DNA of 64,000 nucleotides from Microthyrium microscopicum (Eukaryota): NCBI GenBank assembly GCA_010405405.1, contig MU004240.1:960882-1024881 (forward strand). The letters are read 5' to 3'. Both the position numbers and the translations under genes were made by a program. Shown piece after piece: positions 1-30,527 of this stretch. Within the stretch, counting starts at the first letter, position 1. The number at the start of each line of letters is the position of its first letter. Below the pieces are notes generated by a model. It searched no databases and was not told the DNA's origin. It saw nothing but the letters and a program-made list of their open reading frames with translations.

Positions 1-3000
1 GTCTAAATTAATTATAATAGTATACTTAATAAAAGATAACTTTATTATTAGAAATAGGTCGTTCTAAGTAGGTAAAGACTATAATTATTATAGTTCAAGT
101 AAATATATAAAAATAGGGACAAGAGTAATTACTAGGGAGTTACTTAGACCCCTATAATCTCTCTTCTTTATTACTTAAAGCTATAAAGACTCTACTAAGC
201 TATCTATATTTATAATAGGTTATTATTAGTTAACCTAACTAATAATACTTTATCCTATATAAATGTATCCTATTAGTAGTTATCTTAAACTAGAGGTATC
301 CTAGTTCCTAATATTTATAGTATATAATAATATATAAAAAAAAAAGAATATAATTTTTATAGAGTTATATAGCACTACGTAATATTCTAGGTAATAATAA
401 AAGAAGAATTCTAGTATAACTATACTAAGTAATATATTTTATTATATTTACGTAGGTAGGTAGAATATAGTTCTAGTAATAAAATCTTTTAGTTTAATAA
501 CTTCTTTAAAAAGTTAAAATATAAAGAAGACTTTTCTAGTAAATATATATAGTATAAATATTAATATATAAATATATAATTCTATTAAAGTTATACCTTT
601 ATAATATATATTTACGTAATAAAAGCTTAAGAGATAATACTACGTTCCTTTATAAGAAGCTTATTTATATTACTCTAAAGTATTTATTACTTAAGCTAAT
701 TATTCTCCTACTCTTCTACTCTATTAATAAGGATCTTAAGCAATAAAATATTAAATAGAATTACTAATAAGAGTATAAGTCTATAACTCTAAGGGTTATA
801 TAAGAATAATCTAAGAATTCTAGTAGAATTATATAATTCCCTCTTATTTCTTATAGAATTAAATAGTTTAATTAGTTTATTTAGTTTAATAAGAACGCTT
901 TTGCCTAATAGGATATTTTTCTATAGCTTAGAGATATCTATAACCTTATTAGATAAAGTACCCTAAGAAAATATTTTATTAGTAATATAAATAAGTAAGG
1001 TTAGTCCTATAGAGAATATCCTAAAATATAAGTAGAAATTAAGTATAAATTATATATAAATAATCTAAGAGTTCTAATAGAATTATATAGTTCTCTTTAG
1101 TTAACTATAAAATAATCTTTACGAAATTAAATATCTATAATTCTAAGAATAAAGCATAATATATTAGATAATATTAGAATAAAATAGTAAACTTATATTA
1201 AATTAACTATGAGACTATAAAAGCTTTAAGGATCTTAAAGAATTCTAAAGTAATTCTAATTACTACTCTAGCTTAAAAAAATAAAAGAGACCTAAAATAT
1301 ATACCTAAGAAGACGCTATATAACTTTATATAAGATAAGCTAATATAATTATAGTAGAATTATACTTATTAATAAGAAAAGTTAAAAAAAAAACTAAAAA
1401 AGTTAGAAAAGGAATTAAAGAAGTTAGATAAGCTAAAAGAATTAGAAGAAGAGTTACTATTAGCTAGAATTATATTAAAATTATATAAGCGCTTTAAAGA
1501 GAAATATATAAGAGCTACTAAAAGAGCTAAAGATAGAAATACCTTTAAGTAAAAGTAGAGTAAGTAGAGATAGAGTAAGTACTAAAGTTCTATTAGAATT
1601 ACGTACTATATAGTAGAGAAAGCTTATAAAAGCTACTAAAAGAGCTACTAGAGAAGCTACTAAAAAAGCTACTAAAGGAGCTAAAGATAAGAATACTTTA
1701 AGATAAAAGTATAATAGATACTAGAGTTCTATTAAAATTACGTATAATATTATAAAGAGAGCTTATAATTACTATTATTTTTAAACTCTAAGCTACTAAA
1801 TAAGCTACTAAATAAGTTAGAGGTATTACTACTTTTAAGTAAAATGAGTACTAGAATTCTATTAGAATTATATATAAAATAGTAGAAAGAGCTTACTATT
1901 AACTTTACTTTTAAGCTTAAAGCTACTATCTAAGTTATCTAAAGAACTATTATCTTTAGAGATAGCTATATTAATAATAGCTATATTTCTATTAAAATTA
2001 TATATAACTATTAGTAAATAAGGCATATAATAAAGTAAATTAGAGTAGTCCTCTTTAGTATTAAAGCCTAACTAAGAAAGAAAAGATATAGATTTAATAA
2101 TATCTAAAATTATATAAGAATTATGTAAGCTACGTAGAAGATAATATTAATAGTTAATCTTTTAATACTTTAGCGTTAAGGTAAGAGAGAGATTAAACTT
2201 AGAATTCTTATTAGAGTTAAAGTTAAGAAAATAAGCTAGAATTATAAGTAAATTATACTTTTTATCTTAAAAAAAATATATAGTATATTATATAAGCCTT
2301 CTACTTAAAAAATATAATATTCTTAGCTAGATAGGTTAAAGAATTATAAAAGAACTTTATAAAAATTAATACTTATAAGTATTACTATGCTTTTATAGTA
2401 CCTATCCTAGCTAAAAAAGATTAGCTATACTTAAGAAAACTATAATAGAATTATAAGCTTACTATCTTAGAGAAGAAAGAGGAAGTACTATTAATAGCCT
2501 AGAAGTATATTAGTTAACTCTATAGTTATAGTAATTATAATAGAATTATACTTATATAGTAATAAAAGTAAGAACTATACTTCTTAGTAAATAAATTGCC
2601 TTTTTTAGTATTACTAAGCCTAATAATAGATTAGTTCTATAATTCTTATATAATTATAGTAAGTACTTATACTAAGGTCTCTAGCTTAATTATTATAATA
2701 TTATATAAGCTAATAAGTAGTAAGTATTTATATATAAGTTAAGAGGAAGTAGTACAGTAGTAGTACTTACGATCTCGCGGCAGGCCCTACCTATTTAAGA
2801 ATCCGCAGAGTATAGATTTAATTCCTATCTTCCTTACCACCCTAAAAAGGTAATTATTACTTGCTTTTAAAGCTACGTTTACTCCTTTTTAGAGAAGGTT
2901 ATCCTTTCCTTTTTAGTAAGTATAGAGGACAAGCTATAGCTCTTTTTAATACGTTATAAAAGGTACAAATTTTTATATTACGTAACTACTATATATAGCT

Positions 3001-5255
3001 ATAAAATCATTCTTATTAAAGCTCTACTAATAATAACGAACTAGCGTTAAAAATTACATAATTAGAAACTAGCTACACGGCACGCAAAGCTATATAAAAA
3101 TAAAGCCACAACATCGCTAAAGCGTAGCAAATTCGGCATGCCAAAGCCAATTCTTTTACGGCTCTTAGCAATTAAATCAAAGGAGCGGCCTTAGCTTAGT
3201 AAGCCCAAAATCTAGCCGCAATTAGTTAAGGCAAAGATCAGACCAAACGACACGACAGTAAATTACAGGATCTAGGAACACTACGGCTCAGTAAGTACAG
3301 TGCCCACGGGTTAGCAATACGGCGCTATAGGAAAAGTTAACAAACTTAAGGGAGGTAACCTAGAACACGCTAGTCCAAAGGGCCCTAGATCTCAGCTTAA
3401 AAGCAAAACACAGCGTAGACAGATAGCTCTTAGTAGACTATTAGCGCTACCTTAGACTTAGTATTACAGCACAAATAGAGGAATCTAACATAATAACAAA
3501 GAAGGAATCTTAGCCCCTTAAGGAACGACAATATTAGCAACTTCAAAAACTTAAAGCAGTAGACTAAACGAAAGAATAATAACCTATAATAAATACTAGC
3601 CTAGAGAGGTGCTACGGTTAGATACTACCTAGAATTTAGCTCTCCTAACCTACTAATACTTTCATAGCTTAAGAAGCTAATAGAGCTTAGCATAGTATTA
3701 TTAGCCTTAGTATAGATTAGCCTATAAAACATAATAGTAAGGTTTTCCCTTATATAGTTAGCGCCTTAGTTTACTAAACATATAGAGATTAGCTAAAGCT
3801 AGACTAGGCCTTAGGCCTAGAGCAAGCTATACTTAGCTAGATTTAGGTAGATTAGCTAATTAGATAAGGGTTTTTACCCGCTTATTAAGAGTAGCGTCTA
3901 TATAGCCTATTAGCGTAGCTGAAAGATAATAAAACAAGATTTAATATATATAAGTTAAAATTATGCTAGAATTATAGAAAGCTAACTTACTTATATTTAA
4001 TCTTTACCTTTATATTATAGAAGTAGAGATTATAAACAAATATAATATAAATACTAATAATTATAAGAGAAATCTAGTAATATATTAAAAAGTAACTTAT
4101 ATCTTAGTAGAAGTCTTTTTATCTTCTCCTAATTAACTTATACTAATAGAATAAGCTTTATTAAGTTAGTAAAAGTATAGTAGAATTCTAATAAAAAACA
4201 AACTAGCTCTAAAATAGTAAATATAAATATAGGCGTAAATCTTAAGTAACGTTAGTAGAAGATTAATATAATTCTATAAGAACTTCTATAGTATTACTTT
4301 TATAAGGATAACTATACTAGATTAACTTATTAGATGTATTCTTATCTAGGACTATAATAAGGTAGCTATAATAGAATTATAAGCTAATTATATTTAGTTA
4401 TAGGAAATATAGCCTTCTTTATATTCTAATATTAGCGTAAGAAAGTAACTTAAGTAATAAATTTATATTATCTTATACTATTAGCTTAGTAAAGCATAAT
4501 TCTAACGTAATTACTTATTATTTTCTTTAGCATTAAGTATTAAGATAGAGTAGCCTTTTTAAACCTTATCTAACTTAGCTTTCTAAGCTTATATAGCTAT
4601 AGAATTATAAGTAAATTATACTTTTAAGAATAGTAATAGATATTTATATAAAATAATAGCGCCTTTATTAAGGTTAAGAAAAGCTCCTAAGATTCTTATT
4701 AGTATATAATTATAATTACGTTAGAATTCTATACTAATATATTAACTAAATTATATCTTAAAATTTTTTCTAATAGTATTAATATACCTATTAGTAAATT
4801 TAGCGTATAATGCTTAGATATTTAGAGCTATTAAAATTATATTAGAATTATGTAGGTACTTTAGTATAAATAAGAATAATAATTAACTTTACTTAAAAGA
4901 TTAATTTAAAGATAAAATAGAATAAAATAAAGAAATTAAAGAATTATAATAGAATTCTATTATTATTTATTTTACTATCTTAAATCTACTACTAGAATAT
5001 TATTTTTCTATACTCTTTTAGTATACTAAAAGATTCTTATTCTCTTTAGGCTTAGGTATCTTTAATTATAAATATATATACTAAAGTTAATTAATATATA
5101 CTAAGTATTTTAAAATAAGTTATAAAAAGCTAGTAGAATTATAATAGAATTAATTATTAATAATATAATTTAGACTCTCTAAATAGCTTAGTAGCGTTAC
5201 GTCTTTTTCTAATTTAGGCTCTCTATAAAAAGTAATTTAGGTTTAGGAACTTTAA
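1..5255. mobile_element. RIP-degraded AT-rich repeat/transposon block (element family not identifiable)
   Basis: Very AT-rich, saturated with TpA, almost devoid of TpG and (outside ~2760-3900) CpA. No ORF >=60 aa in the track. Sharp transition to normal composition near 5255. This is the classic RIP signature. Confidence 0.9.
1465..2010 (+). repeat. Imperfect tandem repeat, about 5 units of 118-139 bp, inside the RIP block
   Basis: Core TTCTATTARAATTAYRTA at ~1588, 1727, 1857, 1987, with a variant at ~1470. Internal AGCTACTAAA sub-repeats at 1630-1680 and 1790-1815. Confidence 0.7.
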
Positions 5256-5685
5256 GGGTTCCAGAGTCTAAACCCGCTAAGCATTTCGTGGCGCACCCAA
5301 ATCGCTATTACATCATGAGATTCTGGTGCTGTCAAGTAGGGACCATATCGAATTGCTAAACTTGGGCAGCAGCTCTCGGTCATGCTAAGTTGCTAACAGA
5401 CACTGGAAATAAGGGGCCACCAAGCACGAAAATGGGACAAGGTTGAGAGCTTGTCTTAGTCATGTTGAAATAGGCCCTAAATTATGTTCCCAGCCTCATC
5501 TTCAACGTCATTGTATTCTTGGGCGAGAGTCCACGCAAAAACAAATGTCGAGGATGTTCATGTCGATATGGTTGTGGATGTTCTGTAGAAGAGTCGTTGC
5601 TGGCCATGCACATTTCGTCTTCGATGTCTCTTTCATTCCAAAATAGATGTCTACTTCACCATGAGACCGACCATCTCTACAATTC

Positions 5686-8600
5686 TCACGAGACATTCTC
5701 CAGGGCATTCGAAAGCATCATATCACAATGTGTCCGTATATCTCTGTCCTGCAGCACCTCGTACATAGACCTCAACTCGTTCAAAGACGTCGGCGGGTCC
5801 TGAGAAGCCAGCGCCCCAATCGTCAACAACATAAATCTCTTCGAGTGAGGCACCATTGTCCAGCCACGAGAGTATACCGATTTGACCCTCTCTACATCAC
5901 CATGTGCCAGCTCGAACTGCATATACATAACCCACAGCATCGGCGAGTGTTGTCCTTGCTTGTTTTTCACTCCTCGTTCAAACAATGCTCGCACTGAGTG
6001 CATGTTTGCCTCTGCGCCGGCATCGTATTGGACTTCTGCCCAGATTGCGAATATCCAATCAGAGAGTAGGTTGCGATTTTTGCTGCCTACTTCCATGCGT
6101 ATGGGAGATAGCAAGTGGCCAGGGAGCTTAGAACGTGGTCGGTGTTTTACGAAGGCTTCTAGAATCATCGTATTGCCTGGGAACGCATTAAAATTTCGTT
6201 GTAAGATTTTGCCGATGTTTGTTGGAATATGTTTTCCATGCGTTTTAGGCTTTGCTTGGTGGTAATTCAAGAATGATGTCCAAGATTGGTGAAGTAGCTC
6301 GCGAGATACGTTGTGGCTGGTATTGTCGGGGTCCAACAGAGCTAATGATTCTTCATAATTTTCAGAAGCCTGGGATAGCTTTTTGCTGGTTGTTAGATAT
6401 GTTAGTAGCATGCGAAGCTCTGCTATAATCAGGAAGCCTTCTGGATTTTGTTTCGAAATATGCTCTAGAGCAAGCTTCTCAAACTCCTGGTCAAGTGCGA
6501 CAACAAATTCGAGTTGAACAGGCTCCACACTCTTTGGAAATGGAAATGCACTCTACATCCGGTTAGCAAGCAAATCTTTGGATAGTTGTAGGAGAGAACA
6601 TACTTTGCCTTTGACATACGACACCAGTAAATGCATTGCAGCGTCGTCATTACCAATCTCGAGCTGTTGCCAAACCCATGTTTGCCAGAGTAGAACAACT
6701 ACCAATTGATTCTTTGCGTCTAGGGGTTTGCTATTTTCTATAGCCGTAGATAGAACTTTATTAGCCGACTCCATTTTGCCTCGATGTCCTTCGATTATGG
6801 CATAGGCATTGTATAACCGAAGACTAGATAGCGACTTCTTAAGTAACCTTTTGGCCTCTTTCGCTGCTTCATTGGCATTCCAGTGCTCCAGGACGAACGC
6901 GACGTAGTACTCTGCAAATTCATCATTCGACACAAATTTTGTAGCGATTGAATGCAAAATATTACGCAGCCATGACTTGTCGATAAGCAGTGGAAGATTA
7001 AAGGCTCCACGAAAAAGCTCTTGTGTAGTGAGCAGACGCGACTTGAAGGCTGCAGGTAATGAGTCTTTAGTACTAACGATTTTCCAAAGATCATGATGCT
7101 GGACATGTAAAAAGTCTCCAGACCAGCGGTTTGGAGTCTTTGTTGAGAATAAGGACGATATCAAAGGAGGGAGGCCAAAGTGATCAAGAAAGGCTTCCAC
7201 AAGGTGTGCAGGCTCCACCAAGCTCACATTATCGACTTCATTGAACGGAATCGTCGACAAGACAGGTTCCAAGTCTGCAAAGAATATCGTATGGAAGAAG
7301 TCGCCAGCGGGTGTTTTGTCTTGAGTTCGACCTGGTCGCTACGAAATGATTAGTCTACAGTTCCGCGGAAGATTCGTTTAAGAAATATAGAGTGGATTAC
7401 AGAAGCTTACCCATAATTCGTCCTCCAGTCTCCATTCCAGCTCGACAAATCGTTTCATAATGTCTTTGGTAGGCTTTAGACTCTCTGCTTCGACAGTCAC
7501 CTCTGCCAATTGCTCAGTCTGCTCAGCTCCGGGATTATAGCTGGGCCAAGAAGCATTGGGACTTTCGCCTAATCGTGCTCCCTCACTTCGCCAGAATTGA
7601 CCAAAAAGTTCTAGATTTGTGACGTTTTCCGGTAAGGATGTACGACTATGAAGACACAAGTCGAGAGCTGATTGCCAAAGAGCGACGTTTAGTTCGCCGT
7701 AACCGCATTCGCGTATTAGGTTGCAGAGCTGAAGAAATACGTGGGCATACTTCCCCGAAAGATCAATTCGTTTGGAATCAGCTAGATCAGCTGCGGAAAG
7801 TTGTTCACGCAAATATAGCAAGATGTCGATATAATCGGCATTGGATCTTTCTGTACAGGCAGGACAAGTTAGCATACCTGTGGCTTATTTCCACGCGGAC
7901 TGAGAGGAAGCGCTTACTGTAAAAGAAGCTGAACGGCTTTTTCAGGAATGCCTCAACTCGCATGAGCCGGAGAGCAATGCTGTCTGGTCGAGCGTTGATG
8001 ACTTTAAGCCAACTTCGGACCAAGTTATCCTCGTCAACTCCCACGGGCGTTTGTTCCATCATGCCAATCAAGAGATTCTCTTCTGCCTCTTTATTCGCAG
8101 ACATAGCCTTCAGTGCGTCTCTGTATACCATTGTCCTATTGTCGTGGAGTTTCTTCTGTTCCGATGGACTCAAATCCGCAGCGCGGTCGTATTGTGCACT
8201 ATTCCCTGTTAGATAAACTATCGCCTCAGATTCTGTCTACGAGAAATGAATAGCATTTACTCCCATAAAGGAAGGAGCCTGTGAAGTATACTTTTCAACT
8301 ACCGCAGCAGGAACAAAAGTTTGTTTTTGTCAGTTTATACCACCAAACCGCAAAATCAGATATCAGAGGGCCTGTTGAGAATGAAGACACCCGGGGCGAA
8401 CTAACCTTCGAATCACCTCCTCCTGGTGATCAATTAAATTCAACCAATTTGAGATGTTATGCGGGTCATCCAAAGTTAAGCGCTCTAATCGCATGTTGAG
8501 TTTCTCTGCCCATTTCCAGGTTGGCTCCTTCTCTGAATCTGCATCCACGGACGGCCTATCTACGGGCTTGATAGCTTTTTGAGCGAAGTGTAAGGGACCG

Positions 8601-21939: not shown

Positions 21940-23297
21940 ACTATCAACAGTTAAGCTGAAGTACTCGCCCCATAACAATACATGAATAAGAATATACGAA
22001 AATGCAAAATAGAATCGGGCTACAAGTCGGGACCACCTCACCTACTTGTAAGTATATGCCTCCTCTCTACATTTTATTGAATCAGGCTATCAGCTAAAGA
22101 GCTTTGAACTGCCACTGCAATCGACAGATGAAACAAAGTAAAAGAACCAATACCATTGGATGGCGTTATTATTGGAATATTTTGGGGTGGCTGAGCAGAG
22201 GGGTTCTTCCAGAGAAGATGTCATGCAGGCTCAGACTTGCGCATAAGAAAAGCCTTGACGCCTTCCTAGTTGGGCGGTTAGAACGTCACGATGTTTGGAT
22301 CGTGGTGTTGAGGTTACCACAAGGCATAGCGGTCATAACGATGGGCCTACACCTTTCGGCAGTTCAACACCACTCTTTTGACCATGATGCAGACGATGGT
22401 GCATCAGAGAAGATTTCTCTTCCTTTGAAGTGAAAATAAAATTCGTGTTAAATGAGGCTTTGGGGCCGCCGAGTTTTGGCGGACATTTTGGCTTGAAGCT
22501 GCGGCGTTGTTTTGATAGCACCAATCATGGAGTCGGAAGAGCGCCACTTTGCAGGCAAGCTTCCCCACGAACACTCGTCAAAGTCAGCATGATGGAGTTC
22601 TAATTTTAGATAGTGGTTGGCTGTCATCTTAAGACTTAAAGGAGTCGAGAAATATGAGACATCAACGAATTAGGTGATGATTGTTCTAGACCCCATCGCC
22701 AAAGTGATGTAAGCACAACAGTCCATCAGTTCCTTGCAGGGCAACGTTATATCGACTTGAATGAACTTTGGTTAAAGACTCAAGAGAGGGGAGTGGTTGC
22801 TCATAGTGTTCAAACATGTTTCTATTCGAAAGCTATTGAAGCAAACTTTAAGCTCTAGACGGCATAGCTTGACGCTCATCAGACCCAGGACTGCGGAGAA
22901 GTTCTTGATAAGTTGATGCAGAGCACTAACAATTGCTTTGTAAATAGTAGTTGGGTCAAGAATTTCCATCACCAGAAGCTGCGGTGCAAGATTCTCGCAT
23001 GGCAGACAGCGCAAGAAAAGATAGAAGTCGCAATGGACAAGAAAGGAAGTCGCGACGCGCTACTGCTCATGCTTCCAGCCTGCAACTCGTACTCTACAGT
23101 TGGTAGTAATCGCGTTCCGCCCATGTCAATATCGGTGATCAAATACCGCTTTGAAGAACCGTTATGATATGGCATCTGATATGCAAGTCTGCTAGAAGTT
23201 GCAGTGCAAAAGTGCATATGATCAACAACTGCCGACATGTGAAGAAAGAAAAGCGCGGGGATTCCACGCTAACCAATCACGGAAAGCCCTCGCATTG

Positions 23298-23413
23298 CCT
23301 CGGTCCCGGAACGTCATTCATCACTCAACAACAGTTACCAAAGCCCAGAGAGACCGCGGGTTCATCACCTGCTACTGTGCATGGATCAGGACATTTGATA
23401 TTATTGCCCTCGG
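23298..23413 (+). promoter_or_regulatory. Two CCTCGG elements (FarA/FarB, CTF1-type fatty-acid response sites) upstream of FOX2
   Basis: CCTCGG at 23298-23303 and 23408-23413, about 240 and 130 bp before the FOX2 ATG. This hexamer is the established FarA/FarB site in beta-oxidation promoters of filamentous ascomycetes. Confidence 0.7.
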
Positions 23414-23536
23414 TGTTTTGTTGGCCTCTTTTTTTCCTACCACTTCCGCTTCAATTCTCCATCCCTTCCTCCCTTCTCCTTCCTCACGCGCAACACATCT
23501 CTACCTTCCACGACTCTATTATACTATTCATTAGCT

Positions 23537-26500
23537 ATGGCAGGCTCAGAGCTCCGCTATGACGGCCAGACCGTCGTCGTTACTGGCGCTGGTGGTGGTT
23601 TGGGAAAAGCATATGCCGTATTCTTCGGTTCAAGAGGTGCTAATGTCGTTGTAAACGATCTTGGTGGTTCTTTCAAGGGAGAAGGTACTTCATCAAAGGT
23701 GCGTCAGTTCCAAGCTATCCCGACATGTGAAACTAGAAGCTATGCCAATGGCTTGATCTGGACCACTACATGGGCTCAATGGATCATCGCTAACATTCTA
23801 CCTCTAGGCCGCCGATGTCGTTGTCGACGAGATTAAGAAGGCTGGTGGAAAGGCTGTTGCCAACTACGACAGTGTCGAGTTTGGCGAGAAGATCATTGAT
23901 ACTGCCATTCAAAATTTCGGACGTGTCGATATTCTCATTAATAACGCTGGTATCCTTCGGGATGTTAGCTTCAAGAACATGAAAGATGCGGACTGGGATC
24001 TCATCAACCAGGTTCACGTCAAGGGAGCTTACAAGGTATGTTTGAAAGCTATAATTCCGAAGATCTTATCTAAACCCTCCAGTGCGCTCGTGCTGCTTGG
24101 CCACATTTCAGGAAACAAAAGTATGGCCGTGTTATCAACACTGCGTCAGCTGCTGGTCTTTTCGGAAGCTTTGGTCAAACCAACTACTCTGGTAAGTACT
24201 TTGTACTGCTCAAATGTTCTTCTCTAACAGTTTCTAGCGGCCAAGCTTGCTCAAGTTGGATTTACCGAGACCCTGGCCAAGGAAGGCGCCAAATATAACA
24301 TTATCGCCAATGTCATTGCACCGATTGCTGCAAGCCGTATGACAGAAACTGTCATGCCACCGGATGTTTTGGAGAACCTCAAGCCAGACTGGGTTGTACC
24401 TCTCGTAGCTGTCCTGACTCACTCATCCAACAAGAGCGAAAGCGGATCAATCTTTGAAGTTGGTGGTGGACACATTGCTAAACTTCGATGGGAGCGATCA
24501 AAGGGTGCTCTCTGCAAAGCCGACGAGACTTTCACCCCAGGTTCCATTCTCGCCAAGTGGGCTGATGTCAACGACTTTTCCAAGCCAGAATACCCAGATG
24601 GTCCAGCCAACTTCTTGGAACTCCTCGAACAAGCCAAGCAACTTCCCTCCAACCCTCCAGCTGAGAAGCTCGACTTTACAGGAAAGGTCGTCTTGATCAC
24701 CGGAAGTGGTGCTGGGTAAGTGCATCTCAATTTTCATCAATTGTCTTACTAACATTTCTCAGTATCGGTCGCGCTTATGCCCTTCTTTTCGCTAAGCACG
24801 GCGCTAAGCTCGTCATCAACGATTTGGTTAACCCCGATGATGTTGTCGCCGAAATCAAGAAGGCCGGCGGTGAAGCTGTTCCAGTCAAGGCCTCTGCTGA
24901 AGATGGTGATGCTGTTGTCAAGGCTGCCATTGATGCTTATGGCCGTATCGATGTCATTGTCAACAACGCCGGTATTCTCCGCGACAAAGCTTTCACCAAC
25001 ATGGATGACAAGCTTTGGGATCAAGTTATGAACGTCCATCTCCGTGGAACCTACAAGGTTTCCAAGGCTGCTTGGCCATATTTCTTGAAGCAGAAGTACG
25101 GACGTGTCATCAACACTACCAGCACCAGCGGTATCTATGGTAACTTTGGTCAAGCCAACTACTCCGCTGCCAAGTGTGGTATTCTTGGTTTCTCTCGTGC
25201 TCTTGCTCGTGAGGGCGCCAAGTACAATATCTTTGTCAACACTATTGCACCAAACGCTGGTACTGCCATGACCGCCACCATTATGCCACCAGAGCTTGTT
25301 CAAGCTTTCAAGCCAGAATATATCGCACCAATGGTTGTTCTCCTAGCCTCAGACAAGTGCCCAGACCCAACTGGCGGACTCTATGAAGTCGGTAGCGCAT
25401 GGCAAGGACGAACAAGATGGCAGCGAACTGGTGGCCACGGCTTCCCTATCGATGTCAAGCTGACCCCTGAGGCTGTTCTCACCAAGTGGGAAAAGATTGT
25501 CGATTTCAATGATGGCCGCGCAGACCACCCTGAGAGCGCTCAAGATGGACTACAATCCATCATGGCCAACATGTCAAACAAGAGTGGAGGCAAAGGTAAA
25601 CTATAACCCCTCCATCTTGCCTTTTTGTTAGCTGTTTGAATCTCGCTGTAATTGTATATATGCTTGATCTTCAAAAAAAAGTTATAGAATGACAAGTAAC
25701 ATTTTCAACGTATAGGTGCCTCTCCCGCTGCTGCCAAAGAACCTGCCGGTGGCAACGAGTATTTGACCAATATTAAGAAATTCAAGGCCATCACCTCTGC
25801 TGGAACCGACTACGTCTACGATGACAGAGATGTCATCCTTTACAGTAAGCCTCACCATATCTCCCTCCCCAATCCCACTTTCTAACAATATATCCCATAG
25901 ATCTCGGAATCGGCGCCAAACGCACCGATTTAAACCTCGTCTACGAAAACTCCGATGCCTTCACCCCCCTCCCCTCCTTCGGCGTCATCCCTCCCTTCAA
26001 CGCCGTTCCCGCCTTTGACTTTTCCGACCTCCTCCCCAACTTCTCCCCCATGATGCTGCTCCACGGCGAACAATACCTCGAGATCCGCCAATTCCCCATC
26101 CCAACCTCCGGCACCCTAACATCCACCGTCAACCTCATCGATGTCGTCGACAAAGGCAAGAGCGGTATCATCGTCACCGGCCAAACCACCAAAGACGCCC
26201 AAGGCCGCGACGTCTTCTACAACGAAGCCACCGTCTTCGTCCGCGGCGCCGGCGGTTTCAACGGCCCCCGCGCAATGGCCGAGCGCGGCGCCAGCACCGC
26301 ATCCAACACGCCCCCTAAGAGAGCGCCAGATACGGTAGTAGAAGAGAAAACGAGCGATGACCAAGCGGCGCTCTACCGACTCAGCGGAGATAGAAATCCG
26401 CTACATATTGACCCAGAGTTTAGCAAAGTAGGTGGATTCAAGGAACCTATTCTGCACGGTCTGTGCTTCTTTGGCATTGCGACGAAACATGTGGTGCAGA

Positions 26501-26688
26501 GCTATGGGATGATTAAGAATGTCAAGGTGCGGTTTGCGAGCACGGTGATTCCGGGGGAGACGTTGGTGACGGAGATGTGGAAGGTGGGTGGGAAGGTGCT
26601 GTTTCAGGTTAAAGTCAAGGAGACGGGCAAGATTTGCATTGCTAGTGGCGGTGCGGAATTGCTTGATGGGGGAAAGACGAAGTTGTAG
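23537..26688 (+). CDS. FOX2: Peroxisomal multifunctional beta-oxidation protein (2 SDR dehydrogenase domains + hydratase-2)
   Basis: TGAGGGLG and TGSGAG-IG Rossmann motifs, NNAGILRD twice, GQxNYSAAK twice, hydratase motif [14 protein letters not shown]...LHGLC, C-terminal -TKL PTS1. Confidence 0.98.
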
Positions 26689-27861
26689 ATGGTTGTGACA
26701 GATGTTGGATATGCGGTGTGGTATGTGTAAAAGTGGAGGGAATTGGGGATGACTGTTTGGATATAGAGGGGTTGTTATGTACTGGTGTATGGTTTTAGTG
26801 ATTTGGAGTTATGGGATTAGTGTTAGTAAATTTGAGAACTTTCTCCATACTATGAGTTTCATACCTGCTGAAATCCGACTTTGAGTATAATTATACCTAC
26901 CTTCTTGCTCTTGGAGCCCTCGAGATGCGTTCAAATCTGTTTTCATTGACACCAATGTATTGTATTTTGATATGCTCCCTTTCATTAAGTTATATGTTAG
27001 TAGAGTAGTTTAGTAACCATGCGTGATTTTTTAATCCTATTTGCCGCCCGACTTGGTACATGATGGCATTATACATAGGTGCATTGGACGATAGCTCTTG
27101 ATACCTCTAGCTTCCTGCATCTGTTAGATCTACATCAAAGAGCTCCTTCCAGGAGCTACCACGTCATGTCCACTTTCTCTCCCAAATATCCTTACTAGCA
27201 AATCTGGGCTATACTGATACATGATAGAAAAATTAGCTGATCAAGATAAAAATGGGGAGCTTCCAAAGACCCTAAAGCTTTCGAAAGTGAGCAAAATGAT
27301 TTCAACCAGAAGAAATCTCTTCTCATGATCAGATTATGTGGTGAGAGAAAATTTGCAGCTCAGTTTATCACTCAGAATTTTAATCGCTCTCTGCTCAATA
27401 TCGACAACTGACAAGGCTGAAACCTTCCTTATCTTCCCCACTCTATCGAAATCTCTACGCCCCATTGGTAGCGGGGAAAGAGCGAGGGGTGATGGAGGAA
27501 GCTAAGAAGCTTCAAACGTGGGAGAGCTCGGGCCTGCATTGCCAATTGAACTACGGTGAACATCTCGACAAGACACTACTTAGGTACCACTGATCCGACG
27601 ACAGGACCTTGGGCCTATATCTATCGCTCCTTTCACTTCTTCACCTACTGATTCCCTTACGATTCTTACCCATTTCACCTTGTCGCCCTATCAGCTCCTT
27701 TAACAACACCTCGTGGTCTATATCACCATTCACCATACCATCGTACCACTATTCCAAGACAACCATCGAACCACCAAAGCCCTCTGTACTCCCTCTCCCA
27801 TACAACCAGCACCAAATCCACCGATCGAACACCCTCCAAACTCTTCATGCCTCCCACAAAC

Positions 27862-30527
27862 ATGTCGAACGAAGAAGTCCCTCCCCCTCTCCCCGAGAAA
27901 AAGCGCCGCATCGCTGTCCTCACAAGCGGCGGTGATGCGCCAGGCATGAATGGCGCTGTCCGCGCTGTCGTCCGTATGGCTATTGCCAAGTGAGCAGCAC
28001 TCCCAAGCTTCACAAACCTTTTCTGATAACGTATAACAGAGGCTGCGAAGCATTTTTTGTACACGAAGGCTACGAAGGCCTAGTCAACGGCGGCGACATG
28101 ATAAAGCAAGCAGACTGGGAAGACGTCCGCGGATTCCTGCCAGAAGGTGGCACATTGATTGGTTCTGCGCGCTGTATGTCCTTCCGAGAACGCTGGGGAC
28201 GGTTATCAGCGGCGAAGAATATGGTACGTATACCATGTATATATGTGAATAAATGGTTGCTGATACGAAGACTAGGTGCTGAACGGTATTGATGCGCTCA
28301 TCGTATGTGGTGGAGACGGCAGCTTGACGGGTGCAGACTTGTTCCGCAAGGAGTGGCCGGGTCTGCTAGAAGAGCTGGTCGGAAAGGGCGAATTGACAAC
28401 CGAGCAGATTACACCATTCAAATCGCTAAATATCGTGGGATTGGTCGGCTCGATTGACAATGATATGTCGGCGACGGATGCGACGATTGGGTGTTATTCG
28501 TCGCTGCATCGCATTTGTGGATGTGTGGACTCGATTAACGATACGGCTCAGTCCCATCAGCGAGCATTCATTGTTGAAGTCATGGGCCGTCATTGTGGAT
28601 GGTTGGCTTTGATGTCGGCCATTTCAACCGGTGCTGATTTCTTGTTTATACCAGAGAGCCCTCCCAGTAGAGATTGGCGGATAGATATGAGTACTATCAT
28701 AACGAAGGTGAGTTGGTTGTACTTCTGATTGTTCATTTGCTAATCATTGTAGCATCGGAAAATGGGCAAGCGAACAACGCTAGTAATCATCGCTGAAGGA
28801 GCCATTGACCAAGACCTGAAAAAGGTCACTCCTGGTGAGATCAAGGATCTGCTCTCGAACGAACTCAAACTTGACACTCGAGTCACTACTCTTGGCCACA
28901 TCCAAAGAGGTGGTGCACCCTGCGCCTATGATCGATTGCTTAGTACGCTACAAGGAGCAGAGGCTGTCAATGCTGTTCTGGAAGCTAAAGAAGGAACCCC
29001 AAGCCCAGTCATATCCGTAATCGAGAACAAGATAGTACGACAACCATTGATGGAAGCCGTTCGTTTGACGCAGCTTGTTCCAGCCGCCATCGAACACAAG
29101 GATTTTGCTCGAGCCATGGAGCTGAGAGATGCAGAGTTTTCGGAATATTTTAACGCCTATAGGATTACTGGCGCTGCAGAGTTACCAGAGCTACTTCTTC
29201 CAGAGAACAAGCGTATGCGAATAGGTATAATTCATGTCGGTGCACCTGCTGGGTAAGTAAAATTCCTCTTTGGCTGAACAATGACTGATCTGAGACAGTG
29301 GAATGAATGCCGCATCGAGAGCAGCAATTGCTTATTGCTTCAGTCGTGGACATACACCAGTCGCATTATATAATGGTTTCAGTGGTCTTATTCGACATCA
29401 TTCAGATAAACCACAAGGCTCTGTTCGAGACATATCCTGGCTCGAAGCTGATTCTTGGGTGAGCAAAGGAGGCTCTGAGATCGGAACGTAAGAATAGACC
29501 CATGATTTCGACCTTCTCAGCACTGACTATCAAAAGCAACCGTACCCTTCCCTCAGAGAACATGGCAGAAGTCTCATTAGCCTTTGAACGATACAATATC
29601 CAAGCTCTTTTCTGCATCGGCGGCTTCGAGGCCTTCCACGCTGTCAGCGAACTCCGCAAAGCCCGCAAAGAATTTCCACCAGTCTCGATCCCTATCGTCG
29701 TCCTCCCCGCCACCGTCAGCAACAATGTCCCCGGCACTGAATACTCCCTAGGCAGCGACACGTGTCTCAACGCGCTGATAGAGTACTGCGATACCTGTCG
29801 CCAATCCGCCTCCGCCTCGCGTCGCCGTGTGTTTGTGATTGAGACACAAGGCGGAGAATCTGGCTATGTTGCCGTTATTGCTGGCATCTCAGTCGGCGCT
29901 CTCGCTGTGTATACGCCAGAAGAAGGCATCAATATCAAAATGCTTGATAGTGATATTGATGCGCTACGCGAAACATTCAAGCGGGATCGCGGACAAAATC
30001 GTGCAGGTAAATGCGCCCCTCCTCACCAACCAACACCTAGAGTGTGGAACTAATCTTGTTTCCTAGGCAAAATCATCCTCCGCAACGAAAAAGCCTCCTC
30101 CGTATACACAACCCAAGTCATCGCCGACATCCTCAGCGTCGAAGGCAAAACCCGTGAAGGCAAAGTCCAATTCGAAGCTCGCGTCGGCATCCCCGGCCAC
30201 TTCCAACAAGGCAAAGAACCCTCCCCCATGGACCGCGTCCGTGCCGTCCGATTCGCCGTACGCTCGCTCCAACATCTCGAGTCCTTTGCAGGCTGGAGCC
30301 GCGAAGAAATCGCAAACGATCCTACAACTGTCAGCGTCATTGGCATTCGCGGCGCCAAAGTACAGTTCAGCGCTATGGAGACGGTAGAGAATGAGGAGAC
30401 GGACTGGAAACATCGGAGACCTAAGGCTGAGTACTGGCGTGGTTTGACTGGCTTGGGCGATATTTTGGCGGGAAGACCGAGACGGACTGCGCCTGATGAT
30501 CAGGAGATTGGGATTTTGCCAATTTAG
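27862..30527 (+). CDS. pfkA: ATP-dependent 6-phosphofructokinase
   Basis: [54 protein letters not shown], and a duplicated regulatory half ([15 protein letters not shown]). Confidence 0.97.

What the first reader, a model, noticed from the sequence alone, without database searches (positions are those of the whole stretch)
25561..26688. FOX2 intron hides a second PTS1-like C-terminus: possible dehydrogenase-only peroxisomal isoform
Seen: the intron at 25596-25715 lies in the linker between the second SDR domain and the hydratase domain. Reading into it gives ...SGGKGKL* (TAA 25604-06), almost the same as the true end ...DGGKTKL*. The intron is the longest in the gene (120 nt) and contains TGTATATA followed by an A8 run, resembling fungal 3'-end signals. 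Known: GKL and TKL both fit the broad microbody pattern [STAGCN][RKH][LIVMAFY]>; fungi make cryptic PTS1 isoforms by alternative splicing; mammalian MFE-2 releases its dehydrogenase part by proteolysis. Inference: intron retention or intronic polyadenylation could make a stand-alone, peroxisome-targeted 3-hydroxyacyl-CoA dehydrogenase from this locus. I do not know of this being described.
Basis: partly seen in the sequence, partly recalled or inferred. Interest (0 to 1): 0.72.

Follow-up and report, generated by a model that had tools for sequence, protein, structure and literature searches.

The report
FOX2 intron hides second peroxisome tag
An intron in the middle of this fungus's main fatty-acid-breakdown gene holds a stop codon, a likely peroxisome address tag and likely message-end signals, so the gene probably also makes a shorter enzyme that does only one of its two jobs, an arrangement shared by many related fungi.

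Summary
Observation confirmed. FOX2 intron 5 (25596-25715) lies between the dehydrogenase pair and the hydratase; read unspliced it gives a 606-aa protein ending GKL-stop. The 908-aa product equals an NCBI Microthyrium microscopicum protein.

It is not chance. In related loci, 21 of 21 linker introns stop within 3 codons (controls 42/186) and 18/21 end in a broad PTS1 (controls 7/184). They are long, carry TGTA (20/21 vs 16/186) and have weak branch sites. Two intron phases converge on xKV-stop and [SG]KL-stop. Relatives give apparently processed short transcripts; in one, a KGKL 603-aa form and a 905-aa form share 601 identical residues.

Against: the only run for this species shows the intron spliced; some of the nearest relatives end GTA or GN; 33 of 55 clusters show no such intron; Fox2 can be imported without a PTS1. 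No poly(A) site, protein or localisation is shown.

Best reading (0.62): intronic polyadenylation makes a peroxisomal dehydrogenase-only Fox2. Ten literature searches found no description. This scan noted the same feature on another genome (e1-7703522).

The parts
23537..26688 (+). FOX2 gene, 7 exons (23537-23698, 23808-24035, 24083-24191, 24238-24715, 24763-25595, 25716-25844, 25901-26688), 908 aa: SDR-A, SDR-B, linker, hydratase 2
   Evidence: identical over 908 aa to NCBI KAF2665588.1; Pfam adh_short x2, MFE-2_hydrat-2_N 636-762, MaoC 783-892
23537..25606 (+). Coding span of the predicted 606-aa dehydrogenase-only isoform (introns 1-4 spliced, intron 5 not); both NNAG and YxxxK motifs retained, hydratase motifs absent
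   Evidence: isoform inferred, not observed in this species
25596..25715 (+). Intron 5, the linker intron (120 nt, phase 1)
25596..25601 (+). Weak donor GTAAAC; the only one of the six introns without +5 G (162 of 186 control introns have it)
25595..25606 (+). Hidden tail G-K-L (25595-25603) and stop TAA (25604-25606)
25647..25660 (+). Two TGTA motifs (25647-25650; TGTATATA 25653-25660), candidate upstream 3'-end elements
   Evidence: role inferred from PMC3111234 passages
25673..25692 (+). A8 run (25673-25680) and AATGA (25688-25692), candidate A-rich positioning element; the A8 run is also an internal-priming risk
25695..25700 (+). Non-consensus candidate branch site AGTAAC (no CTRAY)
25845..25900 (+). 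Intron 6 (A|GTAAGC, same phase, begins S-K): internal control, reads S-K-P-H with no tag
26677..26688 (+). C-terminal T-K-L and stop of the full-length protein

Best explanation
Intron 5 is an alternatively used, domain-cutting intron. When spliced (shown here) the mRNA encodes the full dehydrogenase-dehydrogenase-hydratase Fox2. When the weak splice sites lose to 3'-end signals inside the intron (inferred), the message is cleaved and polyadenylated in or just beyond the intron, which would avoid nonsense-mediated decay. It then encodes a 606-aa (3R)-hydroxyacyl-CoA dehydrogenase whose new C-terminus GKL serves as its own PTS1 (inferred). Both products would be peroxisomal, so the switch changes domain content, not compartment: it raises dehydrogenase relative to hydratase, or serves (3R)-hydroxyacyl-CoA made by another hydratase.
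For: (1) Linker introns versus other FOX2 introns, 55 clusters plus the window: stop within 3 codons 21/21 vs 42/186; broad PTS1 18/21 vs 7/184; TGTA 20/21 vs 16/186 (2/26 for controls of 66 nt or more; shuffles give mean 8.9, max 17 of 21); median length 110 vs 52 nt; CTRAY branch 6/21 vs 163/186. (2) Two phases reach a similar tail. Phase 0: donor GTATGA = V-stop in 17/17, against 0/66 other introns of the same loci, with +7..+30 only 34% identical. Phase 1: [SG]KL-stop with varying Leu and stop codons, CTA TAG, CTT TAG, CTC TGA, CTA TAA. (3) Among 333 representative proteins, those stopping in the linker end in a broad PTS1 in 54/76, with GKL 8 times; those stopping at later or earlier introns in 1/60 and 1/38. 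(4) Processed short forms. P0433 (603 aa, KGKL, 1969-bp contig) is 100% identical over 601 aa to P0430 (905 aa, 3047-bp contig), while the genomic ORF P0429 starts only at aa 199. P0233 and P0234 match the spliced product of L014, which has two upstream introns, at 99% without gaps yet end NKV; P0233's 1840-bp contig cannot hold the 92-nt intron. 13 of 17 such contigs are 1.84-2.17 kb. (5) The cut falls outside both Pfam domains and matches a crystallised 604-aa yeast dehydrogenase chain, PDB 2et6. (6) GKL ends 12 of 103 full-length Fox2. (7) 33 of 35 more distant ~600-aa forms (agarics, chytrids, paralogues) end in a strict PTS1.
Against: The one run held for this species has a contig that splices intron 5 out, and bin depths leave no room for contig cover inside it; contigs drop minor forms. 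Some of the nearest relatives have the early stop without a tag: GTA (P0297, P0298, P0407, P0409), GN (P0232, P0311), GT (P0203), GTL, GSL, GNL, GAL; P0407 looks like a processed short transcript ending GTA. Others end KEV, KKV, KQV, RKV, QKV, SQV. Only 3/21 linker tails fit the strict [SAC][KRH][LM]; G at -3 is missing from the fungal consensus quoted in PMC12316961. 33 of 55 clusters show no linker intron. The 17 phase-0 cases form one clade (L027 and L071 were left out of that tree), so they are one origin and the Fisher P values overstate the evidence. Ustilago Mfe2 is imported by the Pex5 N-terminal domain without a PTS1 (PMC9133605), so a tag may be dispensable. Short contigs could also be assembly breaks; 4 of 17 are 2.7 kb or longer and fit plain retention.
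Confidence: 0.62

Rival explanations
1. The short enzyme is real, but the truncation is what is selected. The tail is a helpful or accidental extra, and the short protein is imported through the Pex5 N-terminal domain or stays partly cytosolic.
For: The stop is more conserved (21/21) than the tag (18/21; 54/76 in proteins). K before GT is the usual exon end and V or G-K come from the donor. In the Podospora/Schizothecium cluster neither form has a PTS1 (KEV; AELV/L). PTS1-independent import of Mfe2/Fox2 is reported (PMC9133605; PMC3764329). P0407 is a short form ending GTA.
Against: L-stop after [SG]K with synonymous variation is not imposed by any donor (0/57 controls). In Botryosphaeria the read-through continues to GKSKL, beyond the donor (phase inferred from protein only). 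Distant short forms end AKL/SRL in 33/35.
Confidence: 0.2
2. In this species the tail is a vestige: the intron is spliced constitutively and the short form, real in relatives, is no longer made.
For: Run X1 shows only the spliced join; tails are variable in the nearest clade.
Against: The window keeps the whole set of features together: stop, GKL, two TGTA, weak donor, weak branch, long intron. A near relative (P0411, 92% over 89 aa) also ends KGKL. One contig set cannot show absence.
Confidence: 0.1
3. The intron is an attenuator: premature cleavage or retention with decay tunes the amount of full-length Fox2, and the short protein has no role.
For: Early stop, TGTA and weak splice signals would serve this equally well.
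Against: It does not predict a PTS1-like tail, a cut exactly at the domain boundary, or stand-alone dehydrogenase-only forms with strict PTS1 in other lineages. PMC7491326 section 19 argues that replacement by unspliced duplicates points to a distinct protein.
Confidence: 0.08

Closest known systems
Cryptic PTS1 by alternative splicing or read-through in fungi (GAPDH, PGK, MDH, GND; Freitag et al. 2012, seen only as cited in PMC9549241 and PMC7491326 passages)
   Same: One gene, alternative RNA processing, a hidden C-terminal peroxisomal signal conserved across species.
   Different: Those switches sit at a protein end and toggle cytosol versus peroxisome for the same enzyme. Here the switch is mid-gene, both products carry a tag, and a whole catalytic domain is dropped.
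Yeast FES1 retained intron with stop and poly(A) site; Lipomyces MDH retention (PMC7491326 passages)
   Same: Retained intron that supplies a few codons, a stop and a poly(A) site; conserved over long times.
   Different: There the spliced form carries the signal and differs only by a short tail; here the unspliced form gains a signal and loses 300 residues.
Fission yeast Aco2-L21 fusion with internal polyadenylation (bioRxiv 2019.12.16.879015, abstract and outline)
   Same: A fused two-function gene gives a truncated N-terminal enzyme by internal polyadenylation in the linker.
   Different: The stop there is created by the poly(A) tail, not encoded in an intron, and the enzyme and compartments differ.
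MFE-2 / D-bifunctional protein family: stand-alone dehydrogenase units
   Same: Isolated units fold and are active (PMC3538638 passages for human; PDB 2et6, 604 aa). Proteolytic release of the mammalian dehydrogenase and separate nematode DHS-28/MAOC-1 genes are recalled, not confirmed by any search (one search found no passage on cleavage).
   Different: Here the separation would be made at the RNA level, with a second targeting signal.

Membership tests
Fungal Fox2/MFE-2 | Two SDR domains followed by a hydratase-2 (MaoC-type) unit | tested here: met
   motifs
Fungal Fox2/MFE-2 | Expressed, spliced full-length message | tested here: met
   contig of run X1 joins all six introns (RNA status is the tool's guess, supported by the joins)
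Cryptic-PTS1 isoform genes | Alternative product ends in a PTS1-like tripeptide plus stop | tested here: met
Cryptic-PTS1 isoform genes | Signal conserved beyond what splice consensus imposes | tested here: met
   18/21 vs 7/184; [SG]KL-stop 4/4 vs 0/57; with clear exceptions
Cryptic-PTS1 isoform genes | Alternative transcript detected | tested here: inconclusive
   not seen in this species; inferred in relatives from protein calls and contig lengths; contigs themselves not read
Cryptic-PTS1 isoform genes | Tail directs Pex5-dependent import | not testable with these tools
   needs fusion and deletion experiments
Cryptic-PTS1 isoform genes | Main product lacks the signal, so the switch gives dual localisation | tested here: not met
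   full-length product ends TKL and keeps its own tag; the switch changes domain content
Intronic polyadenylation (FES1 type) | 3'-end elements and weak splice signals in the intron | tested here: met
   TGTA 20/21, weak branch, long intron; note PMC3111234 lists UGUAU/UGUAUAU and AAUGAA as frequent but says UGUA is not predominant in A. oryzae
Intronic polyadenylation (FES1 type) | Mapped poly(A) site inside the intron | not testable with these tools
   only contigs available; Magnaporthe poly(A) data were not in the held supplement list

The most novel reading that the evidence does not exclude
Filamentous fungi run a second, split form of the D-specific peroxisomal beta-oxidation step. A dehydrogenase-only Fox2, cut out by intronic polyadenylation and tagged with its own PTS1, works beside a stand-alone hydratase 2 (this genome has one ending KKSKL). 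The need is old enough that the tag was arrived at several times: phase-0 xKV, phase-1 [SG]KL, Botryosphaeria GKSKL, agaric KAKL, and truncated paralogues. The fused-versus-split ratio would be a regulated switch.
Probability: 0.3. Interest if true: 0.85.

Novelty: new variant of a known kind. Interest (0 to 1): 0.72.

Why it matters
Fox2 is treated as one bifunctional protein in fungal genetics and in strain engineering; deletions, C-terminal tags and cDNA rescues would all miss or remove a second product. Few alternative-processing events in fungi have a known function, and the known peroxisomal ones switch compartment. A conserved switch that changes which catalytic domains reach the peroxisome would be a different use of the same trick. 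It is cheap to test: an intron-less allele, a TGTA mutant and a GFP-tail fusion separate the rivals. It would also explain why several public annotations list 604-605-aa Fox2 proteins.

Tried and rejected
Expression here: one run listed, none on record as RNA. Its contigs give no cover inside intron 5, which cannot show absence.

Piggyback idea (the short tagged form carries untagged full-length Fox2 into peroxisomes): dropped as a main reading. In the Podospora group neither form has a tag, L049, L062 and L087 have a tagged long form with an untagged short form, and PTS1-independent import is reported.

RNA structure in the intron: none (z 0.34); no Rfam match in 23000-27200. Alternative acceptors at 25681, 25687 and 25696 are out of frame with exon 6 and have no support. 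An upstream donor at 25584 was chosen by my aligner with 2 of 3 guide proteins but the contig join is at 25596, so linker boundaries in other loci carry some uncertainty.

AATGA/ATGAA alone is a weak discriminator (10/21 vs 14/186; 6/26 in long controls). Poly(A) data for Magnaporthe: only a 3-kb metadata zip was listed, not read; the gene id used was recalled. No structure or complex prediction was run. Rows dropped: three implausible intron calls (L051 aa 897, L082 aa 3, L089 aa 611); two controls without a stop in the held DNA; four loci left out of the tree (L027, L070, L071, L082).

Full report
Gene and observation. The window lies in a 37.1-Mb, 58-contig genome. FOX2 runs from 23537 to 26688 in seven exons and gives 908 aa ending DGGKTKL. 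It is identical over all 908 residues to NCBI KAF2665588.1 of Microthyrium microscopicum. Pfam shows two short-chain dehydrogenase domains and a hydratase-2 unit from aa 636. Intron 5 (25596-25715, phase 1 after aa 603) falls in the linker. Unspliced, it reads G|GT AAA CTA TAA and ends the protein at 606 aa with SGGKGKL. It is the only intron of the six without +5 G, one of two without a CTRAY branch site, and holds two TGTA motifs, an A8 run and AATGA. It forms no unusual structure and matches no Rfam family.

Expression in this species. One run was listed. A contig at depth 1504 joins across all six introns. The bin depths around intron 5 equal the exon share of that contig to the decimal, so no contig lies inside the intron. 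The spliced form is therefore shown and the short form is not; contigs drop minor forms.

Related DNA. A metagenome scan with an alignment that left out the tail confirmed 210 of 434 candidates and returned the best 80, 55 clusters at 90% nucleotide identity. A spliced aligner of my own recovered the window's introns, though it put the linker donor 12 nt early with 2 of 3 guide proteins. It was run on one locus per cluster. With the window this gave 21 linker introns and 186 other FOX2 introns after dropping three implausible calls. Linker versus control: stop within three codons 21/21 vs 42/186; broad PTS1 18/21 vs 7/184; strict PTS1 3/21 vs 1/184; TGTA 20/21 vs 16/186 (2/26 among controls of 66 nt or more; 2000 base shuffles gave mean 8.9, maximum 17); median length 110 vs 52 nt; CTRAY 6/21 vs 163/186. 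For comparison, the 200 nt after the true stop hold TGTA in 36/43.

Two intron types. Phase 0 (17 clusters): the donor is GTATGA in 17/17, giving V-stop, against 2/186 controls and 0/66 other introns of the same loci. Beyond +6 the introns are only 34% alike (controls 29%). Tails are SKV 9, NKV 2, GKV 2, AKV 1, KKV 2, KQV 1. Phase 1 (three clusters, the window, and L042 read by hand): SKL or GKL then stop, with different Leu and stop codons. Of 57 phase-1 controls, 18 start [SG]K, 3 start [SG]KL and none stops there; the intron at aa 640-647, same phase and same A|GT start, gives 0/16. In a FastTree tree without displayed support, the phase-0 loci group with named Leotiomycetes and Sordariomycetes, and the phase-1 loci lie near Venturia and Tothia. 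The phase-0 cases are thus one origin, and the independent count is small. 33 of 55 clusters show no linker intron; three of these have no intron at all in the part held and may be spliced RNA, and one is broken there.

Related proteins. Three searches (each lists the best 120 of 8000 scored candidates, and each query included a tagged tail) gave 333 representatives. Those stopping in the linker end in a broad PTS1 in 54/76 (SKL 17, SKV 16, GKL 8, AKV 5, GKV 4). Those stopping at the aa-647 or aa-462 introns do so in 1/60 and 1/38. Exceptions matter most near the window: GTA, GN, GT, GTL, GSL, GNL, GAL, beside a close KGKL (P0411); some could be contig ends. Named pairs show the same fork: Venturia (SKL), Botryosphaeria (GKSKL), Colletotrichum (SKV), Truncatella (GKV), Coniochaeta (AKV), and Podospora/Schizothecium (KEV, no tag). 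Among 35 more distant ~600-aa forms (agarics, chytrids, a few paralogues), 33 end in a strict PTS1. In three agaric clusters, 600-aa and 886-919-aa forms share over 90% identity; their gene structure was not seen.

Evidence for short transcripts. The unnamed proteins come from intron-unaware calls (many show intron read-through), so a complete ORF from Met1 implies spliced RNA where the genome has upstream introns. P0233 and P0234 match the spliced product of L014 at 99% without gaps and end NKV; P0233's 1840-bp contig is too short for the 92-nt first intron. P0433 (603 aa, KGKL, 1969 bp) and P0430 (905 aa, 3047 bp) are identical for 601 aa, while the genomic ORF P0429 begins at aa 199. Of 17 such contigs, chosen by me from the lists, 13 are 1.84-2.17 kb and 4 are 2.7 kb or longer. 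This is inference from metadata: the contigs were not read, and assembly breaks could mimic short messages. P0407 is a short form ending GTA, so the transcript does not depend on the tag.

Mechanism. Shown: intron position, stop, tail, sequence signals, conservation and the spliced message. Inferred: competition between weak splice sites and 3'-end elements; cleavage near the intron's 3' end; a stable dehydrogenase (a 604-aa yeast chain of this span is solved, PDB 2et6; human units are active alone, PMC3538638 passages); import by GKL (the ending of 12 of 103 full-length Fox2). In A. oryzae, UGUAU and UGUAUAU are frequent upstream and AAUGAA just before poly(A) sites, though the authors say UGUA is not predominant (PMC3111234 passages). 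The genome also has a stand-alone hydratase-2 gene ending KKSKL, a possible functional partner, and a second FOX2 without the linker intron. The main caution is that Mfe2/Fox2 can be imported without a PTS1 (PMC9133605 and PMC3764329 passages).

Literature. Ten searches found no description of a short Fox2 isoform; most subscription papers are not in the library. Seen as passages: PMC12591190, PMC9549241, PMC9133605, PMC12316961, PMC3111234, PMC3764329, PMC12276699, PMC3538638, bioRxiv 2021.11.08.467853. Passages plus section 19: PMC7491326. Abstract and outline: bioRxiv 2019.12.16.879015. Supplement list only: PMC6257040. Freitag 2012 only as cited. Closed bioRxiv supplements may list such an isoform.

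Verdict. A real, conserved feature, and a new variant of cryptic-PTS1 processing in which the switch removes a domain instead of changing compartment. Probability that the short form is made and tagged as proposed: about 0.62. Interest 0.72.

Noticed in passing
G000:C5 about 1981100-1984300 (-), L009: Second FOX2 paralogue (about 903 aa, ends KASL) with six introns, none in the linker.
   Followed up: partly
G000:C11 about 325150-326212 (+), L094 1314-2369: Stand-alone hydratase-2 (MaoC-type) gene ending KKSKL; possible partner of a dehydrogenase-only Fox2.
   Followed up: partly
P0201/P0242, P0214/P0245, P0230/P0265, P0264: Agarics have 600-aa forms ending KAKL or KSRL, 886-919-aa fused models (two with odd-looking junctions) and a hydratase-only ORF with its own Met ending TKL; the locus may be fused, split or both.
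   Followed up: partly
P0171, P0183, P0187, P0176: Divergent ~605-613-aa dehydrogenase-only Fox2-like proteins (Mytilinidion, Fonsecaea, Cercospora, one unnamed) ending SRL or AKL, branching outside the main Pezizomycotina clade.
   Followed up: partly
full-length relatives: At least 30 of 103 full-length Fox2 end ELV, ELA or ELL with no PTS1, mostly Sordariomycetes.
   Followed up: partly
P0023, P0124, P0126, P0135: NCBI lists 604-605-aa short forms as the gene product in Colletotrichum salicis, Diaporthe eres, Truncatella angustata and Podosphaera aphanis.
   Followed up: partly
window 23602-23735: Contig depth 1427 against 1066 expected from the main contig: extra short contigs near exon 1 or intron 1, unexplained.
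   Followed up: no
window 26996-29256: Phosphofructokinase-like gene downstream (recognised by eye); a 4465-nt contig starts at 26996, about 850 nt before the likely ATG, suggesting a long leader.
   Followed up: no
window 1-6000: Strongly AT-rich stretch (GC 0.21-0.30), perhaps a mutated repeat.
   Followed up: no
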